Positions 6,348 to 53,584 of a stretch of DNA of 64,000 nucleotides are shown here, piece by piece. This stretch comes from Candidatus Woesearchaeota archaeon (GTDB taxonomy: Archaea > Nanobdellota > Nanobdellia > SCGC-AAA011-G17 > GW2011-AR18): assembly GCA_964497265.1 (NCBI GenBank), contig CAZCCK010000004.1:606-64605 (forward strand). Reading direction: 5' to 3'. The notes under the pieces are model-generated. The model worked only from the letters and a program-made list of their open reading frames with translations. It had not been told where the DNA came from and made no database searches. Within the stretch, counting starts at the first letter, position 1, and each line of letters starts with the position of its first letter. The position numbers and the translations under genes were made by a program.

Positions 6348-6956
6348 ATGCCTCAATTATCTGAAGAGCAGATTAATCAAATTAAGAAGTTTGTTGAAAC
6401 TTTTCCTGAAGAGGAGAGAGAGGCAAAATTAGAAGAAATTCTTTCTCAGCTTGTTGAGGAAGATAAGAAGCCTCAAGCAGTCCAGTGTCCGTTTTGTTTG
6501 ATGGGTGAGGGGAAATTAAAAACACAAAAAGTTTTTGAGGACGAAAGGTTTCTTGCTGTGTTAGAAATTAATCCTGCAAATCCGGGGCATATCCTTGTTT
6601 TTCCAAAAAAGCATCTTGCTGATCTACACGCTCTTGAAAATAGTCTTGTTGATTTTTTACTTCTTATTCATAATCTCTCTTCAAGTTTATTGAAATTTAA
6701 TGCGGGTGTGAATGTACTTGTTTCTCTGGGTGTTCTTGCAGGTCAGAAGTTTCCGCATCTTGTAGTGCATATTCTTCCCAGAGTAGAGAAGGATGCGGTT
6801 ACACTTTCTTGGAAAGGAAAGCCGCTAAGTGAGCAAGAGTTAAATGCTTTAAGAGAAAAGATTGCTGCAGGTCTAGTAAAGAAAGAGCCTGAAAAAAAGG
6901 TAGATCCTGAGAAGTTTAAGTCAAGATTGATTAAACCTGAGAATAGAATGCCTTAG
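6348..6956 (+). CDS. HIT-family (histidine triad) hydrolase with an N-terminal extension containing CPFC
   Basis: C-terminal histidine triad PHLVVHILPR (HxHxHxx). NPANPGHILVFPKKH core. Confidence 0.65.
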   Translation: MPQLSEEQINQIKKFVETFPEEEREAKLEEILSQLVEEDKKPQAVQCPFCLMGEGKLKTQKVFEDERFLAVLEINPANPGHILVFPKKHLADLHALENSLVDFLLLIHNLSSSLLKFNAGVNVLVSLGVLAGQKFPHLVVHILPRVEKDAVTLSWKGKPLSEQELNALREKIAAGLVKKEPEKKVDPEKFKSRLIKPENRMP

Positions 6957-7942
6957 AAAAGAGAGGTGAGGTGTGTCCAGAATAAGGTTAAGAGTAGCGC
7001 GAAGAAAAATGCGGGCACGAAAGGTATTCCTTCCTTAACTAAAACTTTTTTAATACCGTGTTTTTTAAGAAGCTCGATTTGTTTTTTTTCAAGTCCTAAA
7101 TCTTTGGGAGTACAGATTGTTTTAGAACCTACTTTAACGGTATTTAGTACCCAGTCTCCTTCTGTTAATTTTTCTACGTTCATCCAAGATTGCATGCTTA
7201 TCTTTTCAACAATTTTTACAAAGAAATAGAGATTGAAAAAGAAATAAACAAAGACAATACTGATAAGAAAGAGGGTCTGATAGATTTCTGTCAGAAAGAA
7301 ACTAATGCTGAGGAGAAGGAGAAATGCTAAAAGCGCGAAGAGGAAGTAATTTCTATTTTGCTTTTTAAGTTCTTGTTTAATTCTTTTCCAGTGTTTTATG
7401 CTTAATCCTAATGTGTAGAATAATCCGTAGAGAGATCCTGCAATAAAGAGGTTAAGGATGAAGAGCGCTAAGAACGGCCAAGGAGAGGTTAATCCGCTGA
7501 TGGGAAGACCGTTTCCAAAGATTGCGCCTACGCCCATAAGGAGTTTACTGTCTCCCCCTCCCCACTGTTTTGTGTAATAAAAAAGGTTGGCGATAACAAA
7601 AGCTGCTCCGAAAGCGAGTAATCCTGTAAGAAAAGGCAAGTAGTCTTTTAAGAGAACAGACTCTAAAGCTCTACTTCCTAATCCTGCGAAGATCATACCA
7701 TAAGAAAGCCAGTCTGGAACTTCTCTTTTTTTTAGATCTGTGATGCTTGCAAGTGTTATTCCAAGAAAACCAATAATTAAGAGCAGGAATTCAATCATAG
7801 ATTCTTTTGGGTAAGAAGCCTTTTTAATGTTTAGCATTTTTCTTTTCAAATGATTTCGATTATTGGTGCGGGTCCTGCTGGTTCTTATGCCGCTTATTTG
7901 CTGGCTAAGGCTGGAAAAGAAGTTCATGTATACGAAGAACAT
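6953..7942 (-). CDS. Archaeal type IV prepilin/preflagellin peptidase (A24 family, FlaK/PibD-like); the true start is probably the internal Met near 7798
   Basis: ASITDLKKREVPDWL (first catalytic Asp motif) and QWGGGDSKLL (second Asp motif, GGGDxKL) lie within a polytopic membrane protein. The first 48 codons of the ORF are Arg/Asn-rich and non-membrane, so they are probably not translated. Confidence 0.7.
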   Translation of the reverse strand: MFFVYMNFFSSLSQQISGIRTSRTRTNNRNHLKRKMLNIKKASYPKESMIEFLLLIIGFLGITLASITDLKKREVPDWLSYGMIFAGLGSRALESVLLKDYLPFLTGLLAFGAAFVIANLFYYTKQWGGGDSKLLMGVGAIFGNGLPISGLTSPWPFLALFILNLFIAGSLYGLFYTLGLSIKHWKRIKQELKKQNRNYFLFALLAFLLLLSISFFLTEIYQTLFLISIVFVYFFFNLYFFVKIVEKISMQSWMNVEKLTEGDWVLNTVKVGSKTICTPKDLGLEKKQIELLKKHGIKKVLVKEGIPFVPAFFFALLLTLFWTHLTSLF

Positions 7943-16477: not shown

Positions 16478-16512
16478 GTAAGTCTTATATAATTTTAATT
16501 CTTTTTAAAAAG

Positions 16513-40626: not shown

Positions 40627-40718
40627 GGGCTCATGGTCTAGTGGCTATGACACAACCTTGACGTTCTCTTCGGAGATCAAAATGGTTGTAGTCGCAGGTT
40701 CGAGTCCTGCTGGGCCCA
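40627..40718 (+). tRNA. tRNA-Val (anticodon GAC) with a canonical 37/38 intron of about 19 nt (40664-40682)
   Basis: GGGCTCA-TG-GTCTAGTGGCTATGAC-A-CAACC-TTGACG[intron ttctcttcggagatcaaaa]T-GGTTG-TAGTC-GCAGG-TTCGAGT-CCTGC-TGGGCCC-A. The intron contains the hairpin TCTC-TTCG-GAGA. Confidence 0.7.
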
Positions 40719-40763
40719 TTTTTTTTAATAAGTTTTATAATATTTTTCTCTTTACTTTTTTCC

Positions 40764-41090
40764 ATGAAAAAATCTTTACTTGCCTTAAGCCTTGTGAGTT
40801 TGCTTCAAGCCTGCCATCCAGTAAAAAATCCAGTGGTTAATTTAGAATGTGGGAATACTGCCTATCAGAAAACAGAAAAAAGAGAAGGAGAGTCTGTTTT
40901 TGATTTTGCTACTCGTTTTTGCCAAGTTTTTGGTGCTGGAAATTACAGTAGGGGCGCGTTGTGTCATCCGATATTAGCGGAAATTAATTGTAATCTAGAA
41001 AATCAAGTGAGCTCTTTTAAGATTTATGAAAGGCCAAAAGAAGTTTGTTATACTCGTCCTGAAGAAGCGTGTTATTCACTTGTTTTTTGA
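40764..41090 (+). CDS. Small Cys-rich secreted/lipoprotein-like protein
   Basis: Signal with LLQAC. Six Cys in 108 aa. Confidence 0.4.
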   Translation: MKKSLLALSLVSLLQACHPVKNPVVNLECGNTAYQKTEKREGESVFDFATRFCQVFGAGNYSRGALCHPILAEINCNLENQVSSFKIYERPKEVCYTRPEEACYSLVF

Positions 41091-41148
41091 TAAATTTTAA
41101 AGCGTAATAATCGTTATATTTATATACCATTAAAGTGGTTTTTTACGA

Positions 41149-43299
41149 ATGGGGAAAAGGGGGCAGGTAACTGTTTTCGTAGTGTTAGGTTTAATTATTC
41201 TTATTCTTGCAGGTTCATTTCTTGCGTACCGTTATTTTGTTATAAATTCTAGTTTAGAGAGTACAAGACAAGAGTTGAGTAGAGTTCCGAGTCAGTTTCA
41301 GCCTGTTGCTGCTTATTTGGATGAGTGTACCCAAACTGTGGCGAGTGATGCATTGACTTTTGTAGGTTCAAGGGCGGGATATTTTACATTGCCGACAGAC
41401 CCGCTTCCTCCTTCTTCTATTAATCCTCTGCAAAGAAATTTAGAAGTTCTTCCAAATACGGATTTGAAAGTTCCTTTGTGGTTTAGAGAATCTAGTAATG
41501 GTATTCAAGAAGTGAATGTTCCTTCAAAAGCAGATGTGGAGAAAAATCTAGCGTTGTATGTAACAACTCACTTTCCAGAGTGTCTTGACAATTTATCTTC
41601 TTTTCAAGAAGAAGGGTATCAAATAATTTCTTCAGCCACTCAAGTAAATTCAAAAGTAACTGTAACTAAAGATGCCGTGGATGTTGTTGTTTCCTTTCCG
41701 ATGCAAGTTTCTTTCAAAGGAGCTAATTTTAAGTTGGATGGTTCTCTTGCTCATGTAGAGACGCAGTTCGGAGATTTATACAATTCCGCGGTCGAGATGT
41801 TAACAACTGAAAATCAAGGATTTTTCTTAGAAAATAAAACATTAGATATGCTTGTTGCGTATGATAAGGAGGTTCCGTATTCTGGTTCTGATCTTTCTTG
41901 TTCAGAAACAGTTTGGTCAAAAACAGAAGTAATTAAAAGATTCAAAGCGATTCTTTTTGAAAATACTGCTGCGATTCATGTGGTCGGTACAGATTTTAGT
42001 TTAGATAATGAAGGTCAAAAATATTTATTGTTTGATGCTTTAAAGAGTAAGCGGTCTGATGTTTCTATAAACTTAAGATATAATCCTTCGTGGCCTACGC
42101 TTGTGGATATTAGTCCTTCGCAAGGGGATGTTTTAAGATCAGATCCTATAACCAAGAATACGGGCGGATTATTAACAACGATTTTATCTTCTTACTTTTG
42201 TTTGAACGATCATCATTTTATTTATACGATAAAATATCCTGTTTTAATTTCGTTGACAGATAAGAATGGTTTTGTGTTCCAGTATGCTACAGAGGTAATT
42301 ATTGATAGAAATCTTGCCAGAGAAAATAGGATTGTTCCCTTAGATATTCCAGATACTCGTTCTTTATTATGCGAGAATGCGGCTAGTCCTCTAACGATCA
42401 ATACCTATTCTTTGGATCAGAATGAAGAACTTGTTCCTTTGAGTGGTGCTGATGTTTCGTTTAAGTGTTTCCCTGACACGTGTCCTTTGAAGGCTGTTGG
42501 GCAGGCGGCAAATAAGATGCAAGTTCTTGCTCCTCCTTGTGTGAATGGGGTTGTAGAAGTTTCCAAAAAGAATTTTTTCAATGGTAAATCTGTTGTATCT
42601 ACGAATACAGCTGAAGTACAAAATCTCAACATTGTTCTTGAGCCTTTGTATGAGAAGCATGTTCAAGTAAAAGTAATTGATAAGAAAACTGGTGAAATAC
42701 GTGATCCGTTTAGTTCAGAATTAATCTCTTTTAGTTTCAAGCATCAGAACGCGCGGTATAATGAATACTTCACGTATCAGAGCGAAGGTGCCTCTTGTGA
42801 GTTAGAGGATACGTGTGGTCCTGGTTTAGAATGTAAGAGGGGCGCATGCGTGTATCCTAGTTGTGAATCTAAAGAAGATTGTTCTCTAAATCAAGAGTGT
42901 GTCTCTAAAAAATGCGCTCCGATTAATACGATTCATTTGCTTGCGGGTGATTATGCTGTCGAGTCTTTCGTTTCTCGTACAAGTACGTGGCCGATTCAAA
43001 CGCAAAAGAAAACGGTGCAAAACTGCGTACAGACCACTGCAGATGGAGTGTTGGGTCTTTTCTTCACAAAAGAAAAATGTTTCACGACAGAGATTCCTTC
43101 CGTTGATTTTAAGAACGCGCTTGTGGGTGGAGGGAATTTCAATGTTACATTTGAGCGTAGTGCTTTAGCTTCAAAGAACGTTTTAACGTTGTATGTTCTT
43201 GCTGATGCCACTCCTGCGGATCTAGAAGGTTTTGCTAATATTCAGACAGATTTAAGTATCAATAAAGATAATCCGAACTTTAGGTATCCTCAGCTATGA
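41149..43299 (+). CDS. Pilin-like (class III signal) large secreted protein with a C-terminal Cys-rich EGF-like module
   Basis: N-terminus MGKRGQVTVFVVLGLIILILAGSFLAY (KRG then Q at +1, followed by a hydrophobic stretch). CELEDTCGPGLECKRGACVYPSCESKEDCSLNQECVSKKCAP. The stop overlaps the next start (ATGA). Confidence 0.5.
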   Translation: MGKRGQVTVFVVLGLIILILAGSFLAYRYFVINSSLESTRQELSRVPSQFQPVAAYLDECTQTVASDALTFVGSRAGYFTLPTDPLPPSSINPLQRNLEVLPNTDLKVPLWFRESSNGIQEVNVPSKADVEKNLALYVTTHFPECLDNLSSFQEEGYQIISSATQVNSKVTVTKDAVDVVVSFPMQVSFKGANFKLDGSLAHVETQFGDLYNSAVEMLTTENQGFFLENKTLDMLVAYDKEVPYSGSDLSCSETVWSKTEVIKRFKAILFENTAAIHVVGTDFSLDNEGQKYLLFDALKSKRSDVSINLRYNPSWPTLVDISPSQGDVLRSDPITKNTGGLLTTILSSYFCLNDHHFIYTIKYPVLISLTDKNGFVFQYATEVIIDRNLARENRIVPLDIPDTRSLLCENAASPLTINTYSLDQNEELVPLSGADVSFKCFPDTCPLKAVGQAANKMQVLAPPCVNGVVEVSKKNFFNGKSVVSTNTAEVQNLNIVLEPLYEKHVQVKVIDKKTGEIRDPFSSELISFSFKHQNARYNEYFTYQSEGASCELEDTCGPGLECKRGACVYPSCESKEDCSLNQECVSKKCAPINTIHLLAGDYAVESFVSRTSTWPIQTQKKTVQNCVQTTADGVLGLFFTKEKCFTTEIPSVDFKNALVGGGNFNVTFERSALASKNVLTLYVLADATPADLEGFANIQTDLSINKDNPNFRYPQL

Positions 43300-46200
43300 A
43301 AAAAAGTAGTGTGATTGCAGTGTTTTGTATGGTTTTGATAGTGACTCTTCCTTTGGTTGTTGCTCAAAGCCAATATTCTTCCTCTTCACAAAGTCTTCTT
43401 CCAGGATATCAACCTAATGAGGTTGCTTTTTTTCAGCAGCCTTCTTCTTTGGCTGATTTGCTTGGTGGTGCTTTTAGTCAGGCTCTTGGAACTGAGCAAG
43501 ATCTTGGAGAGGCGTTAGTTATTTACGCTGCGACTCCTGATCCTCCTTTTATTCGTGCTTCTGCTTTGGAGCAGCAGCCTTTGCCGATTTACATTCCTTT
43601 GAGAGCAACTGATTTTGGTTCGATTTTAGGAAAGGTTTCTGAGGATCCTTCGCAGCGTGATCCTTTTACGGGTTTTACTTCTTTGCCTCCTGTAAAAAGA
43701 ATGGTTGTGAAGTTAAATAGGACAAATCCTTTTGTGAACACAATAAAGTATATTCCTCCTGAGTCTGGATTTTCGAAAGATAATATGGGTTATCTTGTTG
43801 TTGTTTTAAACAGGTTAAGAAATGAAACGAGTTTACCTACTGCTCGTAGTCAGCAGACAAGTGTGTTTAATAATTCTCTTCCGCAGGATGTTGTGCCTAA
43901 TTTAGGCGCAGATACTCCTGTGATTGACTTGGATTTGACTGCTGAGATTTATTTGAATTTGCAAGAGAGTTCTTTGACAAATTTAGGTCAGAGGGATCTT
44001 GTTTTAAAACCAGAATCAGAAAATGATTTTTTGAAAAAATCTTCTAAAGAGGAGAATGCGTTTTATAATGATCGTGCGTATGTACGCGCTTCTGCGATTG
44101 GTCAAGATAGGGTTACGTTAAATGTTTATAATAAGGATTTGTTGCCTTTGACCTTTTTTTCTGCGCCAAATGCTCCTGCTGGATCAAAGGTTGCTTCTGT
44201 CTCCTTAACCACCAATCAAGTATCTAGTCCTGTAAGACTAGGTATTAGTTCCAATCCGTTGCAAGATAGTGTTGTGTTTAAATTAAACAATGTTGTGCTT
44301 CCGGCAAATAGTGTTTCTTATCAATTAAGTACGTCTTCTCAAACATTTGAAAGGGAAGCGAATGAAGGTTCCTTCTTGTATCCTGGTTCTCATTGGCAGA
44401 TTATAAGTGTTAAAAAAAATGAAAGAGACGCGACTGCTGAGCAAGTGAGAAAGCAAGGTTTTACTCTAGATAGTGCTTCGCGTAAAAAGGTAGAGCAAGC
44501 TCAGCCGGGTGATATTAAGATTGTTTCTTATCAAGTATTTTTGAAAAATAGCGCTACCGGTGAGTCTCGTTCTTTGGAAAGAGAGGTGGTTACAGGTAGT
44601 ACGTTTAATTTTGATTTTCCTCCTCTTGATGACGCGACTGCGTTAGCGTTAGAAGAGATGTATTGTCCTTCAGCGTTACAAAAGACTGCCAATGAAGATT
44701 ATGGGTGTGCTGCTGTAAGAAGCTTTAAGCAAGTGATTAATGATTACCCCGCGAGCGCTGAGGCGAAAAGTGCGTATGGGCAATTAGTTGATGTGTACGA
44801 TAATGATCTAATTAGTAATCCTGCTTGTAAGGTTATTGGTAAAGATCAAGTTTTAGATGAGGATAAATGTAGTTTGTTTTTGGATGATATGTTTTCGCTT
44901 GCGTATTATTATGCGTCGAAAGTGAAGGTTTCTAATCCTGTTTTATTGCAAAAGTTAAGAGATGGATTTGGGGGAAAAGGTGGTTTTGAGTTTTTGGAAG
45001 ATGAAGGTATTGGTTTTCAAGTAAAAAATGTAAAAATTGCGACAAATGATGATAAGGGCAAGTTTTCTCTTTCTGTGAATAGAAATCCTCTGGTTATGTT
45101 GCAAGTGGGTAATACTATTCCAAATTTGGTGGGAACGACAACGAAAGGAGATTTGTTTAAGTTTATTGTGCGTCAGATTAATCAGAATTCTGTTTTGGTG
45201 GAGAAAAAGAAAGTTGCGGATATTAATCTGCCTGTTGATGAAAAGAGTGTTTCTTTTGGTTCTTTAACTTTAATTTCTGGTCAGAATAATGTTTTATTAA
45301 AAAAAGGTGAAGAAAATCAGCAAGATGAAAATGTTTTATTAGATATTGGTTCTATTGAAGTAAATACGAGGGCTTCTATCTCTATTATTCCTGGTGCGAA
45401 TCGAGGATTAGCTCGTTCTTCGTTTAGAGTGCATATTCCTATTGAGCCTCGTCCTTTTCCAAATCTTGGTGAAACGTTGAAAGGTCATATTAATGCGACA
45501 AGAAAATTGGTTGCGGATCTTGATTCTGTAATTACAAAGATGGATACAGTGGTAAAGTCTTGGAAGAAATTATGTATTATTACCTTTGCTTTTGTAACCT
45601 TGAAAAGTTCGTTTTTAGGTGGAACAACAAGAACGCTCGCAAGAAGAGGTGTTGCTCAAGTCTACAAAAAGGATTGTGCTACTCAAGTAGCTGCGACTAA
45701 ATTTAGAAGTGTTGATGATTGTCTTGCAAGCAGAACAGATGAGTTAAGTAAGGATGTTGATGCGAATCAAAAAGCGATTGAGGCTGTACAGAGTCAGCTT
45801 AGCAAAGAGACCCCTGATCATCTGAAGATGTGCGGAGATGTTCCTTTCCAAGAGGCGCGTTTACTTGGAGCAACAATTCAAGATTGCCAAGAGTATTTAC
45901 GTTTGAAAGCTTTAAAATCTGAGCAAACGAGTGATTTGTTAAAAATAGAAGCAGACAAAAGTTTAACTGATTTAAAGTTTGAGCAGAAGAAAGATCTTAT
46001 TAGTCAAGCTTCGAAAGCTTATGAAGATAATAAAGATAAGTTGCCTTTCAAAGGAGATGACGCTGCTCAAAAAGGTATGCAGTATTACGCGAATTTGTTT
46101 GAGCAGGAGCAGCAAAAGAAGACGCCGATTCGTGAAGATGTGATTAATGTGCCTTCTTTGATTCCAAATGGAAAAGATACTGCTATTGCTATTCTAAATC

Positions 46201-48578
46201 CGGTCTTTGATCCTCAGACAAAGCAAATAAATCCTGATTCTATTAAGCCTACTGAGCTTAAACAGATTACTCAGTTGCAGTTTAAGATTTATGATGAAGG
46301 CGCTGATGAGGTTGTTAAGCAGGCAACAGTAAATTGTCTGCAAAATGTGAATTCGCAAGTCGCAGCTAAAAATACTCCTGCATACACGTTGCCTTGTGTT
46401 CAGAAGAGGTTGAACGCGTTAAATGTTCCTGATCCTTCTGGTTTGTATGTTAACCCAGTTTTTATTGGTGCTGCGAATCAGATAAGTGCGGATGCTGCTG
46501 TTGCGAGTGCTTTAAGTAATTATAAGGATCAGTTGTTAGTTGATCAAGGAAGTCTAGCAAAGAAAGGCGCTTTACCAAAGGCAAGTTTGTTTAAAGTTTA
46601 TTCTTCTCCGATTGTTCCTCGTGGAAACGAATTGAAGAGTTTAGATTATGCTTATTTACAAGAAGGCGCAACTCCAGGCGGTCTTGTCGCGCAATATAAT
46701 CCTGAGTCTGGAAAAACATTCTGTTATCCTACTGGTAAAAACGGAGAGTATATTTTAGTCTTGGAAAGATATCCTGAGAATGGAAGAGTGAGAACGTTTA
46801 GAGCGATGAATGTTGGGTTGAATGGGGTGATGGAGTGTGGTGGCTCTGGTGATGATGTTCTTGCGGATAAGGGAGACGAGTCTACGCTAAACTTACCTGA
46901 AAATGCGAAGTTAAAGAATGATTACCTTTCTATTGTTGAGCGTGCTCCTACATGCAAGAAAGATGGGGATCAAGCTGGTTTTGTTTTTAATACTAAGGGA
47001 AATAAGATTCCTGTTGTTTGTAGTATGAAGCAGTCTTTATTGAACGCTGCGTTGAGTAATCCTAAGTGTGTGGATGTAATGGAGCCTGAAGATTGTAAGA
47101 TTTTGTTTAATGTGTGTGATCCTGTGATGTGCCCTGCTTCTAGGTGTAATTTAGGTGGAAGGTATCAAGTTCCGGATGTCATCCAGTCTGGTATTGTTGG
47201 TTCTTTATTCTTGTGCGCTCCAAATATTAAGCAGGGTGTTGTTGTTCCAGTATGTTTGACTGGTGTGCTTGCCGGTTTAAAGAATATTAAGAGTTTGCTT
47301 GAAAGTTATGCTGATTGTTTGGAAGCGAATTTGAAAGATGGAAAGAATGTCGGCTTCTGCGATTATATTAGGAGTGTTGGTGTGTGTGAGTTAGTTTGGA
47401 GAGAGTCAACAAGTTTACTTGGAATTAAAGGTGGAGTGATTGATTACTTGTCGGATAAAGTCTTTTCTGAGCCTGAAGGTGGAGCAGAGTATTTAACGTT
47501 CCAGAATTCGTTGCAAAACGTTGGTTCTTCGTTTAATTATTTTACGACTGAATATTCGAATACGTACGTTGCCGCACTGAAAGGTTCTTCTACTGCTGAG
47601 GTTGGTTCTCAGATTTGTAGGCTTGGAGTGTATGGCAGGTTGCCTACTGCTGGTGAAGTGTTAGATAAATTATCTGAGCCTGAAGATCCCCCTCAATTCT
47701 TTGCGTTGTTAGATGAAGCTCCGTATACGCAGACTGTTGGCGAGTCTCCTCTTGCGCTAAATGTTCCTGCGAGTGCTAAAGAGCTTTCATTGTATAAAGT
47801 GTTTTATCATATCTATGCTGGAACTGGCTATGCGCAAGATCAAGCTGTTTTTGCAGAGCCGTTGAATCCTGCGACAAATCAGCCAAATAAAGCTGTAACG
47901 TACTCTGTTGTTTTAAGAAATAGGGAAGCGGGGTTACCAGATGTGTACATGACTTCGGAAGGAGAGTTTTTACAGAATCAAGCGACGATTGCGCGCGGTC
48001 AGTACGCTCAAAAAACAGTACAAAAGGTGGCGGTTCCTGGTTATAATGAGGTGTGTATTGTTTTGAATGGTAAGGAAGCGTGTGGTTTTGGAAAAGTAAG
48101 TTCTTCTTTTTCTTTGAATTATTTGAATGATCGTCTTGTTGAGTCTGATAGTAAGAAAAAGATTACTTCTAGCGAGCAGTGTGTTCCAAATGTTCCGACA
48201 AGTGGGGTTGCTTTAGGTAGTTTAGCTACCCCTGAGAAGTATGGTGTTACCAGTACGGGAATAAGTAGGGTTTGTAATCCTACGCCTCCGACAGCTGATC
48301 TTTCTAGATGGGCAGATGTAGGTTCTTGTGGAAAGGATAAGAATGGGATTGATCGTGGAACATGTTGGCTTGATAAAAATTCTGTGCGCGTTCAAGATCT
48401 TGAGGCAAAGAAAGAGATTAATGTTGCTTTGAAACAATCTGGTTTAGCTGAAAGTGAAAAATCAAAAGTTCTTTCTAGTGAGGACAGTGTAAAGAAGTTG
48501 TCTGAATTAAATACAAAGAGAGATAGCATTCTTGCTCAGTTGAGAGCTGCAGTGCAAAGATTGGCAGGTGCTCTATGA
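43296..48578 (+). CDS. Giant (1760 aa) secreted protein of unknown function
   Basis: Signal peptide MKKSSVIAVFCMVLIVTLPLVVAQS. Continuous ORF with no recognisable catalytic motif. Cys-rich segment near aa 1230-1330. Start and stop overlap the neighbouring genes. Confidence 0.55.
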   Translation: MKKSSVIAVFCMVLIVTLPLVVAQSQYSSSSQSLLPGYQPNEVAFFQQPSSLADLLGGAFSQALGTEQDLGEALVIYAATPDPPFIRASALEQQPLPIYIPLRATDFGSILGKVSEDPSQRDPFTGFTSLPPVKRMVVKLNRTNPFVNTIKYIPPESGFSKDNMGYLVVVLNRLRNETSLPTARSQQTSVFNNSLPQDVVPNLGADTPVIDLDLTAEIYLNLQESSLTNLGQRDLVLKPESENDFLKKSSKEENAFYNDRAYVRASAIGQDRVTLNVYNKDLLPLTFFSAPNAPAGSKVASVSLTTNQVSSPVRLGISSNPLQDSVVFKLNNVVLPANSVSYQLSTSSQTFEREANEGSFLYPGSHWQIISVKKNERDATAEQVRKQGFTLDSASRKKVEQAQPGDIKIVSYQVFLKNSATGESRSLEREVVTGSTFNFDFPPLDDATALALEEMYCPSALQKTANEDYGCAAVRSFKQVINDYPASAEAKSAYGQLVDVYDNDLISNPACKVIGKDQVLDEDKCSLFLDDMFSLAYYYASKVKVSNPVLLQKLRDGFGGKGGFEFLEDEGIGFQVKNVKIATNDDKGKFSLSVNRNPLVMLQVGNTIPNLVGTTTKGDLFKFIVRQINQNSVLVEKKKVADINLPVDEKSVSFGSLTLISGQNNVLLKKGEENQQDENVLLDIGSIEVNTRASISIIPGANRGLARSSFRVHIPIEPRPFPNLGETLKGHINATRKLVADLDSVITKMDTVVKSWKKLCIITFAFVTLKSSFLGGTTRTLARRGVAQVYKKDCATQVAATKFRSVDDCLASRTDELSKDVDANQKAIEAVQSQLSKETPDHLKMCGDVPFQEARLLGATIQDCQEYLRLKALKSEQTSDLLKIEADKSLTDLKFEQKKDLISQASKAYEDNKDKLPFKGDDAAQKGMQYYANLFEQEQQKKTPIREDVINVPSLIPNGKDTAIAILNPVFDPQTKQINPDSIKPTELKQITQLQFKIYDEGADEVVKQATVNCLQNVNSQVAAKNTPAYTLPCVQKRLNALNVPDPSGLYVNPVFIGAANQISADAAVASALSNYKDQLLVDQGSLAKKGALPKASLFKVYSSPIVPRGNELKSLDYAYLQEGATPGGLVAQYNPESGKTFCYPTGKNGEYILVLERYPENGRVRTFRAMNVGLNGVMECGGSGDDVLADKGDESTLNLPENAKLKNDYLSIVERAPTCKKDGDQAGFVFNTKGNKIPVVCSMKQSLLNAALSNPKCVDVMEPEDCKILFNVCDPVMCPASRCNLGGRYQVPDVIQSGIVGSLFLCAPNIKQGVVVPVCLTGVLAGLKNIKSLLESYADCLEANLKDGKNVGFCDYIRSVGVCELVWRESTSLLGIKGGVIDYLSDKVFSEPEGGAEYLTFQNSLQNVGSSFNYFTTEYSNTYVAALKGSSTAEVGSQICRLGVYGRLPTAGEVLDKLSEPEDPPQFFALLDEAPYTQTVGESPLALNVPASAKELSLYKVFYHIYAGTGYAQDQAVFAEPLNPATNQPNKAVTYSVVLRNREAGLPDVYMTSEGEFLQNQATIARGQYAQKTVQKVAVPGYNEVCIVLNGKEACGFGKVSSSFSLNYLNDRLVESDSKKKITSSEQCVPNVPTSGVALGSLATPEKYGVTSTGISRVCNPTPPTADLSRWADVGSCGKDKNGIDRGTCWLDKNSVRVQDLEAKKEINVALKQSGLAESEKSKVLSSEDSVKKLSELNTKRDSILAQLRAAVQRLAGAL

Positions 48579-51500
48579 AGAAAGCAGTTTTACCTTTAAT
48601 ATTCCTTCTTTTTATTTCTCTTGTAGTTGCTCAGTCTGATATTTGTGATAAACAGAATGTGAAGTGTTTAGAGAAAGATCCTGCGAGTGTTACATTAATT
48701 AATGATTTTCGTTCTTTAGAGTATGGTCAACTTGCTACGTTTTCTAGTGATAATGATGTTTCTGCTAAAGCGTTGTACGATCAAGCTTCTGGTTTTAAGG
48801 ACATTGCTCTTTTGAAAAGGCAGTATGAAGGTGTTGTTCACTCTAATAAGAAAGTAAGCCAAGTATTAAACGCTTTTTCTGAGAATGTTTTAAGCGCTCA
48901 TAAAGATTCTTCAGGTAATATAAGATTTGATTTTTTTGTCTCTTCTGCTGATGCTGCAACGTATGTCCTTAATTGGAATAATCAGGTGGTTGCGCAGGCG
49001 ACAGAGAACGATCTTCAAGGGAACAGTATTGTTTTTCTAGTAAGTGCTGACGAATTGCAAAAGGCAGGTGTAACAAGTCTCGATATTTCTGAATTTTCTA
49101 AGTTTAGTGTTTCAAAGGGAGATGAGCAAGGAAAGGTGTTTGCTCGTTATGGGGTGAGTAGTGTTTCTGTTCCTTCTCCTTTAATTTCTGCGGCTACGGT
49201 GGATCGTATTCCTGCAGATTCAATAAGTATTGGCTACGATCCTGCCAAACTTGCTCTTGAGATAAGCATTGCTCCTAATCAAGTCGGTTCAACAGCTCAT
49301 TTGTTAATTGATGATCAGGATATTCAGCTTAATGGTGGGATTGGTGTTGATGGGAAGTTTAAGGCAAAGGTGGACCTTTCCTATCCGAATCAGATAAAAT
49401 TAAAAGATGCGTTAATGAAAGATAGTTCTTTACTTTTCAGTGCGAAAATTAAGACAACTGACGCAACATTTACTCCTTCCGAGATTTATGTTACTGCTCC
49501 TAGACTTTTAGAATCGTCTGGAGTGATTCCTGTTGTTATTGCTCCTACTCCGCCTACAGCGCCTGAAAAGAAAGTGCAAGCTGAGCAAGTAGGGATTATT
49601 GATTTGACAAATACTGAAGAGTTAAAGCAGCAAGCAATTACAGCTTGTGCTCAAGAAGCTTTGGGAATTGAGTTAAGTAAACCCAATTCGAAACAGGTGG
49701 AAGTTATTCAGCAAAGAATGACGTCTGTTCAACCAGGTGCTTCTGATACGTTGGTTAATTTAGTTCGATCTGCTACAAATGATCCTTCAGAGCAGGTAAC
49801 TTTAGCAGGTATTATGTCCAAAGAGTCGCTAGCGAAGGTCGATATTGGTGACAGTTCTGCTGGAGCGCGTGGAGTGATGCAGTTTATTTCTCTTTCTGCT
49901 GTTGAGATGAAAGTTCCCTATAAGGATTCGTATGGCGATCGTTGTGCGAACAAAGCTGCTGCAAAAGTTACTGGACAGTGCGCATTATGTCTTCCTTCTG
50001 GATGTAATAATGGTGATGCTCGAAAGCAGCCGGATATAGAGATTGCTTCAGCGAATGTATTATTACAACAAAAGAAAAAAAGTTTACAAAAATGTATTAA
50101 AGATAGTACTCAAGGAAAGAATATTGTTGTTCCTCCAGAGGATTTATTTAAGTTTACCATTGCTGCTTACAATAGGGGTGAAGGAAATATTTGTCATGAT
50201 ATTGAACGGGTAATTAGTCAAGGTTCTCAAAAAGATGCTTCAAAAGTAACCTGGGAAGATGTTGCGGCCTTGCAATTATTTCCAAGTCAGACACGTTGTT
50301 ATGTTCCTGCAGTAATCTTTTTTATGTCTGCGCATAGAAATTTATTTAATGTAGAAACTATTGGTGTTTCAAAAGAAACTGTATCCACTCAGTTAGGATG
50401 TGCTGATTGTGGTTTAGATAACCAATGCAGTGCAGATGATTGTCGTCAAAGAGGGTGTATTGTTGTTTCTAAGATTATTGGTTCTTCTTGTGCAGATAAG
50501 CCTGCGGAGGTGGTTACTCCAACACCAAATCAAGATCCTTGTAATGCTTGTGGAAAAGAGTGGACTGCTTTTTGTAATAAAAAGAATTGTGATGAAATTA
50601 AGAGTTTGTTAGAATCTCAAGGAATCGGATCTTGCACATATACGCCTGGAGTAGTTGATAGTATTTTTGGTGGTTCTTGTTCTTCAGCTGTAACAGCAAA
50701 TCCTTTAGTGGGTGGTTGTACGAATGTGGACCGATCGAAAAAGATCTTTCCGCTCAGAAGTGTGCAGGTAACTTCTTGTTATGGAAAACGGATTTTAAAG
50801 GGAAGTGAGCAATGGCATCCGGGTATTGATTTTAATGCGCCTATAGGAACAGATGTTTTGGCGGTTGATGAGGGCACGGTTTCAAAGATTTGTGTGGGTA
50901 GTGCTAAGACTGATTGTGGTGGTTACGGGTACTATGTGAGAATCAAGCACCCTGATGGAAGTATTAGTCAATATAATCATCTTTCGCAGTCCTCAGTTTC
51001 TAACGGAGAAAATGTCAAACAAGGACAGGTTATTGCAAAAAGTGGAAATACGGGCGATGTTACAGGTCCCCATTTACATTTCAATATTTATTGTAGTGAA
51101 CAGGATCTAAATGCGGGTCAGGATTATAAGTTAGATCCATTTTATTATTTACCTGACATTCCTTTAGCGAAAATTAATCAAAATGCGTGTAGGCTTTCTC
51201 CGATCTTTAATCAGATTTACGCGGTTAATCCTCAATCTCCGCAAGTTTTAGCAGCGCAGCCTCTTGCAAATGAACCAAGTGATGACGCTCATCCTGCTGA
51301 TTTGAATGTAGAAATTCATCCTCAAGAAGTATATTTAGTGTGGTCTGAAGGAGAGTTCGAACCTCCAACGCTCGTGCCACAGTTAACAAGTAAGCCGGTT
51401 GTAGGTACAAGATATTTAGCTGATGCTTCTGATGGTTTTTATGTTGAGCAAGTTTCAAAAGACGGAATTTCGCTTTCGTTGTTTTCTACAGATGAGCAGG

Positions 51501-52219
51501 GTGTGGTCAATCAGGTACAGCCTTTAGCTTTTGCTAATCTGGTAAAAGCTTCTTTGAATGGTGCAGAATATGATTTTGTTCCTGTTGAGGAAAATAAGTT
51601 GTATGTGCAGCCAGAGGTAAAGCATGTGTTTGTTGCGAGTACTATTGAGCCTGGTTTTCCAGTGAGAGTAGTTGATCTAACTCAGAATTCAAAGATTACT
51701 GGCGCTGTTATTACTGAGCATTCTGAAAAAGATATTCCGGAAGTATTTGTATTTAAGCATGGAGAATCAAGAGAGGTAAATGCGATTAATTATGTTGTGT
51801 TGCATCATACTGGCACGTTTAGTGCTCAAGATACGATGAAAGTGCTCTCAAAGAGAGGGCTTTCTGTGCATTATGTTTTGGATAAGGATGGCGCTTTATA
51901 CCGACTTGTTCCAGAAGAGGAAATCGCGTGGCATGCAGCTGGAAGAAATGCTGATTCTATTGGTATTGAGATTGTGAATACGGGTAATGCTGAGGATAAG
52001 TATACGCAAGAGCAGTATAGGGTGATTAGTGTTCTTTTAGATTATTGGGCAAAGACGTATCCGAATTTTAAGAAAGATAATGAGCATGTGTTAGCGCATT
52101 ATGAGGTTTCTAGTCAGAAGTGGGATCCTTCTCCTAATTTTGATTGGAGTCAGATTGGGTTAGAAGGGCACGCTTTGGCGAGTTCTGATCAAGTTCCAAA
52201 AGGGGCAGGGTATGCATAA
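48575..52219 (+). CDS. Secreted multi-domain peptidoglycan hydrolase: SLT lytic transglycosylase, M23 (LytM) endopeptidase and Amidase_2/PGRP N-acetylmuramoyl-L-alanine amidase
   Basis: Signal peptide. SLT motif SKESLAKVDIGDSSAGARGVMQF (about 49800). M23 motifs HPGIDFNAPIGTDVLAVDEGTV, GYGYYVRIKHPDGSISQYNHLS and TGDVTGPHLHFNIY (about 50800-51160). Amidase_2 INYVVLHHTG...GLSVHYVLDKDGALYRLVPEEEIAWHAAGRNADSIGIEIVNTG...DPSPNFDW (about 51700-52150). Confidence 0.75.
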   Translation: MKKAVLPLIFLLFISLVVAQSDICDKQNVKCLEKDPASVTLINDFRSLEYGQLATFSSDNDVSAKALYDQASGFKDIALLKRQYEGVVHSNKKVSQVLNAFSENVLSAHKDSSGNIRFDFFVSSADAATYVLNWNNQVVAQATENDLQGNSIVFLVSADELQKAGVTSLDISEFSKFSVSKGDEQGKVFARYGVSSVSVPSPLISAATVDRIPADSISIGYDPAKLALEISIAPNQVGSTAHLLIDDQDIQLNGGIGVDGKFKAKVDLSYPNQIKLKDALMKDSSLLFSAKIKTTDATFTPSEIYVTAPRLLESSGVIPVVIAPTPPTAPEKKVQAEQVGIIDLTNTEELKQQAITACAQEALGIELSKPNSKQVEVIQQRMTSVQPGASDTLVNLVRSATNDPSEQVTLAGIMSKESLAKVDIGDSSAGARGVMQFISLSAVEMKVPYKDSYGDRCANKAAAKVTGQCALCLPSGCNNGDARKQPDIEIASANVLLQQKKKSLQKCIKDSTQGKNIVVPPEDLFKFTIAAYNRGEGNICHDIERVISQGSQKDASKVTWEDVAALQLFPSQTRCYVPAVIFFMSAHRNLFNVETIGVSKETVSTQLGCADCGLDNQCSADDCRQRGCIVVSKIIGSSCADKPAEVVTPTPNQDPCNACGKEWTAFCNKKNCDEIKSLLESQGIGSCTYTPGVVDSIFGGSCSSAVTANPLVGGCTNVDRSKKIFPLRSVQVTSCYGKRILKGSEQWHPGIDFNAPIGTDVLAVDEGTVSKICVGSAKTDCGGYGYYVRIKHPDGSISQYNHLSQSSVSNGENVKQGQVIAKSGNTGDVTGPHLHFNIYCSEQDLNAGQDYKLDPFYYLPDIPLAKINQNACRLSPIFNQIYAVNPQSPQVLAAQPLANEPSDDAHPADLNVEIHPQEVYLVWSEGEFEPPTLVPQLTSKPVVGTRYLADASDGFYVEQVSKDGISLSLFSTDEQGVVNQVQPLAFANLVKASLNGAEYDFVPVEENKLYVQPEVKHVFVASTIEPGFPVRVVDLTQNSKITGAVITEHSEKDIPEVFVFKHGESREVNAINYVVLHHTGTFSAQDTMKVLSKRGLSVHYVLDKDGALYRLVPEEEIAWHAAGRNADSIGIEIVNTGNAEDKYTQEQYRVISVLLDYWAKTYPNFKKDNEHVLAHYEVSSQKWDPSPNFDWSQIGLEGHALASSDQVPKGAGYA

Positions 52220-52940
52220 GAATTTTATTCTAGATCTTATTTTTACGGTTTTATTGATTTCTCTTCTTATTTTTGTAAGAACAGAATCTAAAAGTTATTT
52301 TCAGCAAGTTCAGGGCTTTTCAGAAGATATTGCACATATTGAGAATGGGCTGTCTTCGAATGAGTTTACAGAGCAAGATACGTTAAACGCAGACCAAACG
52401 TTAACAAGTTTGAATAAGATCTTAACAAAATCTATTTTTTTAAATGTTCTTCTTCTACCTTTAGTTATTTTTTTGTTGTGGGTTGTCTTTCAAGGTCTGA
52501 TTTGGAGGTCTTTAACAAAGATGAGCTTAAGCAAATTTGCTTTAATTTCAATTATTCCAGTAGTTCTTTTCTTTTCTTTAATTTTATATTTTTTAGAATA
52601 TGTTTCTTTTGTTTTTTTTAAAGATACAACTGCTTCTTTAGTGGTTCTAATCTTAATGGTTCTCTTATTATTCATTGTCAATTATTTTTATTTAATCCTT
52701 GTTTTAAAACCAAATCTAAAAATGAAAGAAATTTTTAAAATAGCTAAGACTAAATTCTCTAAATTAATTGTTCCTTATTTAATTTTAAGTCTAACTGCCT
52801 TTATCTATTTAATTTTAGGCGTTTTAATTTTTATTTTTAGTTATGTTGGTACTTCTTTCATCATTCCGGCTTTACTTTTAGCGCTTCTTTTAATTCTCTT
52901 GCAGTACGAAAGAAAGTGGTTGCTTAAGCTAGCTTTTTAA
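52212..52940 (+). CDS. Polytopic membrane protein (about 6 TM) ending the giant-protein operon
   Basis: The start overlaps the previous stop. Mostly hydrophobic helices. Confidence 0.45.
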   Translation: MHKNFILDLIFTVLLISLLIFVRTESKSYFQQVQGFSEDIAHIENGLSSNEFTEQDTLNADQTLTSLNKILTKSIFLNVLLLPLVIFLLWVVFQGLIWRSLTKMSLSKFALISIIPVVLFFSLILYFLEYVSFVFFKDTTASLVVLILMVLLLFIVNYFYLILVLKPNLKMKEIFKIAKTKFSKLIVPYLILSLTAFIYLILGVLIFIFSYVGTSFIIPALLLALLLILLQYERKWLLKLAF

Positions 52941-52991
52941 GAAGCAAAGCGCTAAGAAAGATTTATATAGAAGTTTATACATTGTATAAAC

Positions 52992-53204
52992 ATGGAGATA
53001 GAAAGTAAAATCAGAAAGTGGGGAAATTCGTACGGGGTAATCCTTCCAAAGCAGTTTCTCGAATCAGAACACTTGCAAGAGGAAGATGTAGTAAAGATTA
53101 ATGTTACTGCTAAAAAAGCGGATATTGCTAAACTCCGAGGGTTATGGAAGTTTAAGCGTCCAATTAAAGAAATCATGAAAGAAATCAAGGAAGGATATGA
53201 GTAG
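52992..53204 (+). CDS. AbrB/MazE/SpoVT-type antitoxin (VapB-like)
   Basis: KIRKWGNSYGVILPKQFLE looped-hinge-helix motif. 70 aa. Its stop abuts the next start. Confidence 0.6.
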   Translation: MEIESKIRKWGNSYGVILPKQFLESEHLQEEDVVKINVTAKKADIAKLRGLWKFKRPIKEIMKEIKEGYE

Positions 53205-53584
53205 TGTCCGAATTTTTTTATGATAGTTATGCGATTATAGAATTTATAAATAATAATCCTAGATTTGTCCGCTACTTTACTGAAAATGGGGGTGTGACTA
53301 CGTTATACAATGTCTTAGAAGTTTATTATGCGATTATAAAAGAAGGTGGTGCTCATGAAGCAAAGAAAGTGCTGGAGTTATTAAGGCCGATAATTGTATA
53401 TCCTGATATAAGTTATGTTGAAGAGTCTATGAAGTTTAGGTTGGAGAATAAAGAAAAAAAGTTATCCTACGCTGATTGTTTGGGGTATATAATCGCTAAA
53501 AGGAAGAAAATAAAATTTCTTACTGGAGATGAGGGGTTTAGACATTTAGCCAACGTGGAATTTGTTAAGGCAAATGAGATCTAA
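53204..53584 (+). CDS. PIN-domain toxin (VapC-like)
   Basis: N-terminal FFYDSYAIIE (first Asp), SYADCLGYIIA and LTGDEGF acidic residues. 126 aa, paired with the AbrB-like gene. Confidence 0.55.
   Translation: MSEFFYDSYAIIEFINNNPRFVRYFTENGGVTTLYNVLEVYYAIIKEGGAHEAKKVLELLRPIIVYPDISYVEESMKFRLENKEKKLSYADCLGYIIAKRKKIKFLTGDEGFRHLANVEFVKANEI

What the first reader, a model, noticed from the sequence alone, without database searches (positions are those of the whole stretch)
41149..52940. Translationally coupled operon of giant secreted proteins: a candidate novel cell-surface or attack apparatus
Four consecutive same-strand genes have overlapping stop and start codons (41149-43299, 43296-48578, 48575-52219, 52212-52940). 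They encode a 716-aa pilin-like protein, a 1760-aa giant protein with no recognisable domain, the triple murein hydrolase and a 6-TM membrane protein. The preceding small Cys-rich lipoprotein (40764-41090) may belong to the same locus. The combination of a pilin-type anchor, a giant spacer protein, a lytic enzyme and a membrane component is consistent with a surface structure that delivers or positions a cell-wall-degrading enzyme. I do not recognise this combination as a described system.
Basis: partly seen in the sequence, partly recalled or inferred. Interest (0 to 1): 0.85.

Follow-up and report, generated by a model that had tools for sequence, protein, structure and literature searches.

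The report
Archaeal surface operon carrying bacterial-wall-degrading enzymes
A tiny DPANN archaeon (Woesearchaeales) carries a conserved four-gene operon for a membrane-anchored protein, a giant secreted protein of unknown fold, a triple peptidoglycan-cutting enzyme and a membrane protein; the likeliest use is breaching bacterial cell walls, which archaea themselves lack.

Summary
Four same-strand ORFs lie exactly at the stated coordinates with 4-, 4- and 8-nt overlaps. The 1760-aa ORF is a real gene.

The window is archaeal (Woesearchaeales-type DPANN). The 716-aa gene and the giant gene form a module found in at least 530 species genomes; all 80 inspected are Woese-/Pacearchaeota. The 716-aa gene sits directly upstream of the giant gene in 66/68 loci by ORF call. 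The module lies among housekeeping genes, so it is vertically inherited, not mobile.

The hydrolase is functionally tied to the giant protein. In relatives, SLT or glucosaminidase domains are fused to the giant's C-terminal tail. In the window's clade the tail is a separate secreted protein with a conserved N-terminal module and shuffled catalytic domains. The 6-TM protein follows in 36/65 loci.

The 716-aa family has a conserved prepilin-type N-terminus, and the window encodes a prepilin peptidase. The giant core has no sequence or fold relative. The Cys-rich lipoprotein is not conserved with the locus.

Large murein-transglycosylase proteins of these archaea are already in the literature. 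I did not find the operon, its partners or the swappable hydrolase tail described in the literature I could search. Function is inferred, not shown.

The parts
41113..41127 (+). TATA-like box (TTATATTTATATA) about 25-35 nt upstream of the 716-aa gene's ATG. Likely the operon promoter, giving a short or leaderless 5' end.
   Evidence: Read directly from the sequence. Inferred, not mapped.
41149..43299 (+). 716-aa membrane-anchored surface protein (P0007). The N-terminus MGKRG|QVTVFVVLGLIILILAG is a class III (prepilin-type) signal. An alpha/beta domain follows, then transthyretin/CnaB-like beta-sandwich domains. This clade has an 8-Cys insert at aa 550-589.
43296..48578 (+). 1760-aa secreted giant protein (P0001). 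Sec signal peptide at aa 1-23. No other TM segment. 33 Cys.
   Evidence: Full-length colinear homologues. 530 confirmed loci in species-representative genomes. 1039 cluster representatives. No Pfam, NCBIfam, PHROG or PDB-sequence hit.
45336..45815 (+). Conserved block 1 of the giant protein (aa 681-840). Start of a confidently predicted helical bundle. Contains the hydrophobic 15-mer at 760-774.
   Evidence: Conservation profile over 67 homologues. AF2 pLDDT 80-90 for model residues 130-340. Hydropathy.
46683..48395 (+). Conserved Cys-rich core of the giant protein (aa ~1130-1700). Contains near-invariant motifs FNVCDPVMCPxSRCxLGG and YKVFYHIYAG, and two Gly-rich hydrophobic segments at 1295-1328. 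Fold unknown.
48575..52219 (+). 1214-aa secreted multidomain peptidoglycan hydrolase (P0008) with its own Sec signal peptide.
48647..49174 (+). Conserved N-terminal module of the hydrolase (aa ~25-200). The conserved part spans ~aa 25-110 in most homologues and up to ~200 in the closest. It is shared by all 13 separate hydrolase genes with a jackhmmer match, whatever their catalytic domains, and occurs inside fused giant tails (L006, L054). Proposed docking domain.
   Evidence: jackhmmer.
49784..50218 (+). SLT lytic transglycosylase domain (aa 404-548). Motifs E-S (E416), GVMQ (433), AYNRG (531).
   Evidence: Pfam 21.4 bits against a cut-off of 21.3. Motifs. jackhmmer links it to strong SLT domains in relatives.
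50816..51112 (+). Peptidase M23 (LytM-type endopeptidase) domain (aa 748-846). Motifs HPGID and HLH present.
   Evidence: Pfam 96 bits. Motifs.
51779..52135 (+). Amidase_2 (N-acetylmuramoyl-L-alanine amidase) domain (aa 1069-1187).
   Evidence: Pfam 96 bits. NCBIfam AmpD-like match.
52212..52940 (+). 242-aa membrane protein with six TM segments (P0009), basic (pI 9.4), no Cys. Role unknown; proposed membrane anchor or assembly factor.
   Evidence: Hydropathy. Family lies directly downstream of the giant or hydrolase gene in 36/65 loci. A T5 run overlaps its stop codon.
6953..7942 (-). Peptidase_A24 (prepilin / class III signal peptidase). Candidate processing enzyme, acting in trans, for the 716-aa protein.
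   Evidence: Pfam 49.6 bits. The link to the operon is inferred.

Best explanation
This is a lineage-specific, vertically inherited cell-surface module of Woesearchaeales and Pacearchaeales archaea. I propose it works as follows.

1. The 716-aa protein is exported with a prepilin-type signal and cut by the A24 peptidase. It stays anchored by its N-terminal hydrophobic helix, in the membrane or in a pilus-like fibre.
2. The Sec-secreted giant protein associates with it as a long scaffold.
3. The giant protein's C-terminal end carries peptidoglycan-degrading enzymes. They are either fused to it or, as here, form a separate secreted subunit that docks through a conserved N-terminal module.
4. In this window that subunit combines a lytic transglycosylase, an M23 endopeptidase and a MurNAc-L-Ala amidase. 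Together these cut the three main bond types of murein.
5. The archaeon has no murein, so the target is the wall of a bacterial partner, host or prey at the contact site. The purpose would be attachment, access or feeding.
6. The 6-TM protein is a membrane partner, either an anchor or an assembly factor.

Shown: gene co-conservation, fusion and fission, secretion signals, intact catalytic motifs.

Inferred: the physical complex, prepilin processing, the bacterial target and the biological role.
For: - The window is archaeal: S3Ae, S13/S15, TFIIB, eIF2alpha, GINS and intron-bearing tRNAs.
- The giant family occurs in 530 species genomes. All 80 inspected are Woese-/Pacearchaeota or Nanoarchaeia.
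- The family is sharply bounded: 1039 representatives, 912 of them at E<=1e-30.
- The 716-aa gene is directly upstream of the giant gene in 66/68 loci, with a 4-nt overlap in 42.
- Fusions of the giant core with hydrolases: P0040 core+SLT and P0018 core+glucosaminidase; SLT in 9 fused tails against 5 separate genes.
- Tails and separate genes carry SLT, Amidase_3, Amidase_2, M15_4, M23, NlpC/P60, Phage_lysozyme2, DPBB_1, Hydrolase_2 and SH3_3.
- The conserved N-terminal module of the separate hydrolases is also found inside fused tails.
- The 6-TM gene comes next in 36/65 loci.
- Signal peptides and catalytic motifs are intact.
- The prepilin-like motif is conserved, and an A24 peptidase is in the window.
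- The flanks are conserved housekeeping genes: FtsY, SRP54, S15, S3Ae, GINS and TFIIB.
- Published proposals say these large LT proteins target bacterial walls (PMC8204110, PMC9723730). Archaeal PGHs have been shown to kill bacteria in other lineages (PMC12352652).
Against: - There is no direct evidence of a complex, of surface location or of a bacterial partner. No Woesearchaeales-bacterium co-culture turned up in the literature I could search.
- Only about a third of the 86 tails and separate genes have a Pfam-recognisable hydrolase.
- Some carry other enzymes: Exo_endo_phos, GDSL lipase, GH3.
- Pacearchaeota-type loci lack the 6-TM gene.
- No pilus ATPase or platform gene was found among the ORFs I annotated in the window. 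A few smaller ORFs, such as 12-662, 694-1263 and 6348-6956, were never scanned.
- The fold search of the 716-aa protein did not return type IV pilins.
- The giant model is only moderately confident (pLDDT 63.6, pTM 0.38), so 'no fold relative' is a soft negative.
Confidence: 0.55

Rival explanations
1. Two-component S-layer or cell-envelope scaffold. The 716-aa protein would be the membrane-anchored stalk (SlaB-like) and the giant protein the lattice-forming canopy (SlaA-like). Hydrolase modules would merely decorate the coat.
Against: N-X-S/T sequons are depleted: giant 4 against 13.5 expected, hydrolase 0 against 8.1. Archaeal S-layer proteins are usually heavily N-glycosylated (general knowledge). 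The core keeps about 35% identity and invariant Cys motifs across orders, which is unusually conserved for S-layer proteins. There is no SlaA-like fold hit. Many loci start with a small RHH or wHTH regulator gene, suggesting regulated expression. The SlaB hit has rmsd 23 A and is domain-level only.
Confidence: 0.15
2. Freely secreted bacteriolytic enzymes, either antibacterial weapons or murein-scavenging exoenzymes, with no apparatus. The giant and 716-aa proteins would have an unrelated function, and the operon linkage would be incidental or only regulatory.
For: The hydrolase has its own Sec signal and no anchor. Secreted archaeal PGHs that kill bacteria are documented (PMC12352652). Murein-fragment salvage has been proposed for Pacearchaeota (PMC11537232).
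Against: Hydrolase domains are repeatedly fused to the giant protein's C-terminus. All separate versions share an N-terminal module that also occurs in fused tails. Both point to physical coupling. The gene order with 4-nt overlaps is conserved.
Confidence: 0.12
3. Part of a mobile, conjugative, type IV secretion-like or virus-derived entry apparatus. The hydrolase would be a VirB1/PrgK-like or tail-lysin component and the giant protein a tape-measure-like protein.
For: PrgK-type T4SS hydrolases also combine LytM, SLT and a third hydrolase domain (recalled from memory). The M23 and amidase domains hit phage endolysin and tape-measure PHROGs. A tRNA gene lies about 430 nt upstream of the operon, just before the 108-aa ORF.
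Against: No VirB4, VirD4, integrase, capsid or terminase genes lie nearby. The giant core, the 716-aa protein and the 6-TM protein have no PHROG hits. There are no relatives in IMG/VR or the phage database. The locus sits in a conserved housekeeping neighbourhood across two orders.
Confidence: 0.03
4. Remodelling of the archaeon's own murein-like wall (autolysins).
For: The domain set (SLT, M23, amidase) is that of bacterial autolysins.
Against: No murein synthesis genes appear among the window ORFs that were annotated. Archaea outside Methanobacteria and Methanopyri are not known to make even pseudomurein, and most archaeal PGHs are not from those clades (PMC12352652). The catalytic domains are freely swapped and sometimes absent, which is unlike essential autolysins.
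Confidence: 0.03

Closest known systems
[quoted passage not shown] 2021, PMC8204110; 'large lytic murein transglycosylase' in PMC9723730)
   Same: Same lineages, same size class (up to about 3000-3800 aa), extracellular, SLT domain. Relatives of the window's giant protein carry SLT at the C-terminus. This is very probably the same family.
   Different: In the window the SLT is on a separate downstream protein and the giant ORF itself has no hydrolase domain. The literature describes a single annotated domain. It does not describe the conserved non-enzymatic core, the 716-aa prepilin-like partner, the 6-TM partner, the operon, or the swapping of catalytic modules. Identity with fam00969 could not be checked by sequence.
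Polymorphic toxin / effector systems (CdiA, Rhs, MafB type)
   Same: A long conserved N-terminal body with a variable C-terminal enzymatic 'warhead' that is shuffled between relatives.
   Different: No co-varying immunity gene. The downstream 6-TM protein is conserved whatever the warhead. That is expected if the producer has no murein. There is no sequence relationship, and export is by Sec.
Archaeal class III signal-peptide surface proteins (type IV pilins; Sulfolobus bindosome sugar-binding proteins; bacterial modular pilins)
   Same: A basic leader ending in G, then Q and a hydrophobic helix of about 20 residues. An A24 peptidase is in the genome. A large globular cargo follows the helix.
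   Different: No assembly ATPase or platform gene in the operon. The pilin fold is not confirmed. Processing is untested.
Gram-positive conjugation hydrolase PrgK (LytM + SLT + CHAP) and phage tape-measure or tail lysins
   Same: Several murein-cleaving domains on one large protein, used to open a foreign or own wall locally for a macromolecular apparatus (from memory; PHROG hits).
   Different: No T4SS or phage genes are present. The core proteins are unrelated. The locus is chromosomal and vertically inherited.
SlaA/SlaB two-component S-layer of Sulfolobales
   Different: The anchor is N-terminal and prepilin-like rather than a C-terminal TM. No SlaA-like fold. Sequons are depleted. The proteins are Cys-rich with a highly conserved core.

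Membership tests
Woese-/Pacearchaeota large murein-transglycosylase proteins (fam00969, PMC8204110) | Restricted to Woesearchaeota and Pacearchaeota | tested here: met
   530 confirmed loci. All 80 listed are Woese-/Pacearchaeota or Nanoarchaeia MAGs. One is labelled Paceibacterota but has archaeal GINS and FtsY flanks.
Woese-/Pacearchaeota large murein-transglycosylase proteins (fam00969, PMC8204110) | Very large (up to ~3000 aa) extracellular protein | tested here: met
   1760 aa with a signal peptide. Listed family members are mostly 1600-3779 aa.
Woese-/Pacearchaeota large murein-transglycosylase proteins (fam00969, PMC8204110) | Contains an SLT domain in the same polypeptide | tested here: not met
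   The window's 1760-aa ORF has no Pfam domain. SLT is on the next gene. Relatives have it fused.
Woese-/Pacearchaeota large murein-transglycosylase proteins (fam00969, PMC8204110) | Sequence membership in the published cluster | not testable with these tools
   The held supplements do not contain fam00969.
Class III signal peptide (type IV pilin-like) proteins | Short basic leader ending in G/A, followed by a hydrophobic stretch of about 20 residues | tested here: met
   MGKRG|QVTVFVVLGLIILILAG. The motif K-[KR]-G-Q-x-T-x-F-[IV]-I is conserved in about 62 homologues.
Class III signal peptide (type IV pilin-like) proteins | Cognate prepilin peptidase in the genome | tested here: met
   Peptidase_A24 at 6953-7942, minus strand.
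Class III signal peptide (type IV pilin-like) proteins | Pilin fold (long alpha1 helix packed on a beta-sheet) and assembly ATPase/platform | tested here: inconclusive
Class III signal peptide (type IV pilin-like) proteins | Cleavage by the peptidase | not testable with these tools
   Needs biochemistry.
Polymorphic toxin systems | Conserved body with variable C-terminal enzymatic domain | tested here: met
Polymorphic toxin systems | Cognate immunity gene immediately downstream that co-varies with the toxin domain | tested here: not met
   The downstream 6-TM family is the same whatever the catalytic domain.
Gram-positive T4SS (PrgK/VirB1-type hydrolase context) | VirB4 and coupling ATPases and a VirB6-like protein in the same locus | tested here: not met
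   No such domains in the operon or its flanks.
SlaA/SlaB-type S-layer | SlaA-like canopy fold; abundant N-glycosylation sequons | tested here: not met
SlaA/SlaB-type S-layer | Forms the cell's paracrystalline lattice | not testable with these tools
   Needs cryo-ET or proteomics.
Family 1 lytic transglycosylase (SLT, GH23) | Catalytic Glu in the E-S motif, plus G-L/V-M-Q and A-Y-N-x-G motifs | tested here: met
   E416-S, GVMQ 433, AYNRG 531. Pfam is just above its cut-off.
Peptidase M23 (LytM) | HxxxD and HxH zinc-binding motifs | tested here: met
   HPGID 748, HLH 833. Pfam 96 bits.

The most novel reading that the evidence does not exclude
The conserved Cys-rich core of the giant protein may be a membrane-active device (pore-forming or fusogenic). 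It would act on the bacterial cytoplasmic membrane once the C-terminal hydrolases have opened the sacculus. The operon would then encode a complete inter-domain cell-entry apparatus through which Woese-/Pacearchaeota tap a bacterial host's cytoplasm. The clues are that the core's three most hydrophobic, Gly-rich 15-mers lie in its two most conserved blocks and that it has no detectable fold relative.
Probability: 0.1. Interest if true: 0.9.

Novelty: new variant of a known kind. Interest (0 to 1): 0.6.

Why it matters
Woesearchaeales and Pacearchaeales are among the most widespread uncultured archaea. Who their hosts are, and how they attach, is an open question.

This locus turns a vague annotation ('large murein transglycosylase') into a defined system: a conserved operon with a membrane-anchored partner, a giant scaffold of unknown fold, a membrane protein and interchangeable wall-degrading modules. 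That makes the idea of bacterial hosts or prey directly testable:
- The hydrolase modules can be expressed and assayed.
- Their bond specificity can point to the host's wall type.
- The conserved core gives a marker gene and an antigen for imaging enrichment cultures.

It also provides an example of effector-domain shuffling without immunity genes, as expected when the producer lacks the target polymer.

Tried and rejected
- **Sequence searches of the unknown proteins.** Pfam, NCBIfam and PHROGs on the 716-, 1760-, 242- and 108-aa proteins found nothing.
- **PDB sequence profiles.** Nothing for the giant core. Only E>0.3 noise for the 716-aa family.
- **Paralogy between partners.** hhalign of the 716-aa family against the giant family showed no relationship.
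- **Viral origin.** IMG/VR pattern scan and tblastn against the phage database found no relatives of the core. Rejected.
- **T4SS or conjugation idea (PrgK analogy).** No ATPases nearby. Rejected.
- **Cys-rich lipoprotein and the 974-aa fn3/SASA protein as locus members.** Not conserved next to the module. Rejected.
- **First word-index homology search with the whole giant protein.** It found only 5 relatives and badly underestimated the family. Pattern scanning of genomes and a full HMMER search corrected this.
- **Literature.** One search (co-culture terms) was uninformative. The supplement search for fam00969 found nothing.
Full report
**1. Observation**

The stop/start junctions are ATGA, ATGA and ATGCATAA. 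Overlapping neighbours are common in this compact genome: 8 of 31 same-strand pairs overlap. The overlaps alone are therefore weak evidence.

Pfam finds domains only in the 1214-aa protein:
- SLT at aa 404-548, 21.4 bits, just above the cut-off
- Peptidase_M23 at 748-846, 96 bits
- Amidase_2 at 1069-1187, 96 bits

The catalytic motifs are intact: E416-S, GVMQ and AYNRG for SLT; HPGID and HLH for M23.

The 716-, 1760-, 242- and 108-aa proteins have no hit in Pfam, NCBIfam or PHROGs. Hydropathy shows:
- one N-terminal hydrophobic segment in each of the 716-aa, giant and hydrolase proteins
- six segments in the 242-aa protein
- many cysteines in the three large proteins (18, 33 and 28)

**2. Organism and context**

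The window encodes archaeal ribosomal proteins S3Ae and S13/S15, TFIIB, eIF2alpha, GINS, eRF1, SRP54 and FtsY, and has intron-containing tRNAs. GC content is about 37%. Relatives of the giant protein come from MAGs named Woesearchaeota, Pacearchaeota or Nanoarchaeia. The window is therefore from a Woesearchaeales-type DPANN archaeon.

**3. The giant ORF is real and belongs to a large, bounded family**

- A word-index search found only five homologues. These are 1724-2135 aa long. Three align colinearly over the full length at 32-52% identity. The other two (1953 and 2135 aa) align mainly over the C-terminal core.
- A pattern scan of one genome per GTDB species found 530 confirmed loci.
- A full HMMER search with the C-terminal core found 1039 cluster representatives, 912 of them at E<=1e-30. 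The 150 listed are mostly 1600-3779 aa, with the core always about 1000-1300 residues from the N-terminus.
- Conservation over 67 full-length homologues peaks at aa 681-840 and 1241-1700. It is lowest in a helical linker at 841-1120.

The frameshift-artefact refutation therefore fails.

**4. Synteny**

- A homologue of the 716-aa protein lies immediately upstream of the giant gene in 66 of 68 loci with enough upstream DNA. In 42 of these the overlap is 4 nt. The other two loci have tblastn matches at that position, but their ORFs are broken.
- The 6-TM family, detected by jackhmmer, lies directly after the giant gene, or after a separate hydrolase gene, in 36 of 65 loci with downstream DNA. 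It is mostly absent from what I take to be Pacearchaeota-type loci.
- The wider neighbourhood is conserved too. FtsY, SRP54, S15, S3Ae and GINS lie upstream and TFIIB downstream in many loci, as in the window.
- Many loci begin with a small gene translationally coupled to the 716-aa gene. From the sequences these look like either an RHH-type regulator (MKKYLLLIEDEKLWEKFK...) or a winged-helix regulator (MIPTEKELVDFLKK...). The window lacks one.
- The 108-aa Cys-rich ORF has no counterpart in any locus. It has its own TATA-like box.

The module is thus an ancient, chromosomal, vertically inherited locus.

**5. The hydrolase is the detachable tail of the giant protein**

In the window's clade the giant protein ends 63-72 aa after the conserved core. 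A separate gene of roughly 390-1270 aa follows. In most other loci the giant protein has a tail of 200-1956 aa after the core.

Database homologues show direct fusions:
- P0040 has the core plus SLT (66 bits).
- P0018 has the core plus a glucosaminidase domain.

Pfam on 72 tails and 14 separate genes found:
- SLT in 14
- Amidase_3 in 4
- Amidase_2 in 3
- Peptidase_M15_4 in 2
- SH3_3 in 2
- Phage_lysozyme2, DPBB_1, M23, NlpC/P60, Glucosaminidase, Hydrolase_2, DUF2272, DUF1615, GH3, GDSL lipase and Exo_endo_phos in one each

SLT occurs in nine fused tails and five separate genes. Separate genes in the window's clade carry different combinations:
- SLT + M23 + Amidase_2 (the window)
- SLT + Amidase_2
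- SLT alone
- M23 + SLT
- SLT + M15_4
- SLT + DUF2272
- Amidase_2 alone
- Exo_endo_phos
- none detectable

All 13 separate genes with a match nevertheless share the N-terminal ~25-200 aa module of the window's hydrolase. That module also occurs inside the fused tails of L006 and L054. This is fusion/fission evidence for a physical and functional link. It also shows a polymorphic-effector-like architecture.

**6. The 716-aa partner**

Its family has a strikingly conserved N-terminus, M-x-[KR]-[KR]-G-Q-[VA]-T-x-F-[IV]-I-x-G. As far as I recall the FlaFind pattern, this fits an archaeal class III (prepilin) signal.
- Among 1241 genes in the related loci, 66 carry this motif and 62 of them are this gene.
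- In the window it is the only ORF with the motif.
- The window encodes a Peptidase_A24 at 6953-7942 on the minus strand.
- AF2 (38-sequence alignment; pLDDT 83, pTM 0.52) predicts a 41-residue N-terminal helix, an alpha/beta domain and C-terminal beta-sandwiches.

'Pilin-like' is therefore supported for the signal and anchor, but not for a filament-forming role.

**7. The giant core**

AF2 on aa 600-1760 (37 sequences) gave pLDDT 63.6 and pTM 0.38. Confident segments are a helical bundle (aa ~729-939) and parts of the Cys-rich alpha/beta core.
- Foldseek against PDB gave nothing better than E 0.28.
- PDB sequence profiles, IMG/VR and the phage database were all negative.
- The three most hydrophobic 15-mers outside the signal peptide (760-774, 1295-1309, 1314-1328) lie in the two most conserved blocks. 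This is compatible with buried helices or with membrane-active segments.
- N-glycosylation sequons are depleted in all three large proteins.

**8. Interpretation**

The best-supported reading is a surface module with these components:
- a prepilin-anchored stalk or adaptor
- a giant secreted scaffold
- interchangeable wall-degrading enzymes at the scaffold's distal end
- a membrane partner

It would be used against bacterial murein, which the archaeon itself lacks. The absence of an immunity gene fits that reading.

Shown: co-conservation, fusions, export signals, catalytic motifs.

Inferred: complex formation, processing, target and role.

Rivals, in order of weight:
- S-layer-like envelope pair. 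This has some structural and distributional appeal. It is weakened by sequon depletion, strong core conservation, the lack of a SlaA-like fold and the dedicated regulators.
- Freely diffusing lysins. This is weakened by the fusions and the shared docking module.
- Mobile, T4SS or viral apparatus. Rejected on context and on the lack of relatives.
- Autolysins for an own wall. No supporting evidence.

**9. Comparison with the literature**

- Castelle et al. [quoted passage not shown] They note earlier sightings in three DPANN genomes (Rinke 2013; Castelle 2015) and propose attachment to bacterial walls.
- Vigneron et al. 2022 (PMC9723730) and an ODZ study (PMC10936187) repeat the observation.
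- A 2025 PLoS Biology paper (PMC12352652) shows that archaeal PGHs can kill bacteria and that Nanoarchaeota are rich in them.

I did not find described in the literature I could search:
- the operon
- the prepilin-like and 6-TM partners
- the conserved non-enzymatic core
- the split and fused forms
- the shuffling of hydrolase modules

**10. Verdict**

This is a new variant of, and a substantially fuller description of, a known kind. Interest is moderate to high, because it makes the bacterial-host hypothesis for these archaea experimentally approachable.

Noticed in passing
window 40764-41090: The 108-aa Cys-rich ORF has a lipobox-like N-terminus (LLQAC) and its own TATA-like box at about 40731-40742. 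It has no homologue in any of 85 related loci, so it is not part of the conserved module.
   Followed up: yes
window 52983-53204 and 53204-53584: A small AbrB/SpoVT-like ORF (..KWGNSYGVILPK..), judged from the sequence only, is followed by a PIN-domain gene with a Pfam hit. Together they look like a VapBC-like toxin-antitoxin pair right after the operon. The related locus L001 also has an RHH plus PIN pair downstream.
   Followed up: partly
window 40627-40718 (+), 58808-58964 (-), 35523-35583 (+): Three tRNA matches. One is 92 nt with an intron; ARAGORN could not call its anticodon. One is 157 nt with a long intron. One is only 61 nt and just above the Rfam threshold.
   Followed up: no
window 37561-40485 (-): A 974-aa secreted protein with fn3, PKD/Big-like domains and a weak SASA carbohydrate-esterase match (E 1.8e-4). 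A de-O-acetylase would help lytic transglycosylases act on O-acetylated murein. However, the gene is not conserved next to the module elsewhere.
   Followed up: partly
window 10550-17751 (+): A run of same-strand ORFs (398, 454, 306, 323, 229, 225, 412 aa). The six that were scanned have no Pfam hit; 15800-16477 was not scanned.
   Followed up: no
L003, L004, L030, L031, L037, L041, L047, L048, L057, L071-L073, L075-L077, L080, L085; and L026, L038, L049, L050, L055, L063, L066, L067: Small genes are translationally coupled upstream of the 716-aa homologue. Two types occur: a ~41-47-aa RHH-like protein (MKKYLLLIEDEKLWEKFK...) and a ~61-65-aa winged-helix-like protein (MIPTEKELVDFLKK...). They are probably dedicated regulators. 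The window has none.
   Followed up: partly
L080 (DAOTCN010000002.1): The record is titled 'Candidatus Paceibacterota bacterium', but it carries the archaeal module plus archaeal GINS and FtsY in the conserved order. It is probably a mislabelled Pacearchaeota MAG.
   Followed up: partly
L080 genes +1 and +3, L008 gene +3, L022 gene +2: Short (236-284 aa) proteins with the same K-[KR]-G-Q-x-T-x-F N-terminus lie near the module. In L080 and L008 they are paralogues of the N-terminal part of the 716-aa family.
   Followed up: partly
L020:5603-8929; some giant tails in alignment A3: Some C-terminal or separate modules carry non-murein enzymes: Exo_endo_phos, GDSL lipase, GH3 and a transglutaminase-like domain. 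The payload may therefore not be limited to wall hydrolases.
   Followed up: partly
window 41149-52219 (three large proteins): N-X-S/T sequons are strongly depleted: giant 4 against 13.5 expected, hydrolase 0 against 8.1, 716-aa protein 4 against 6.9. Cysteine content is high (1.9-2.5%), and the cysteines that could be checked (giant core and the 716-aa family) are conserved.
   Followed up: partly
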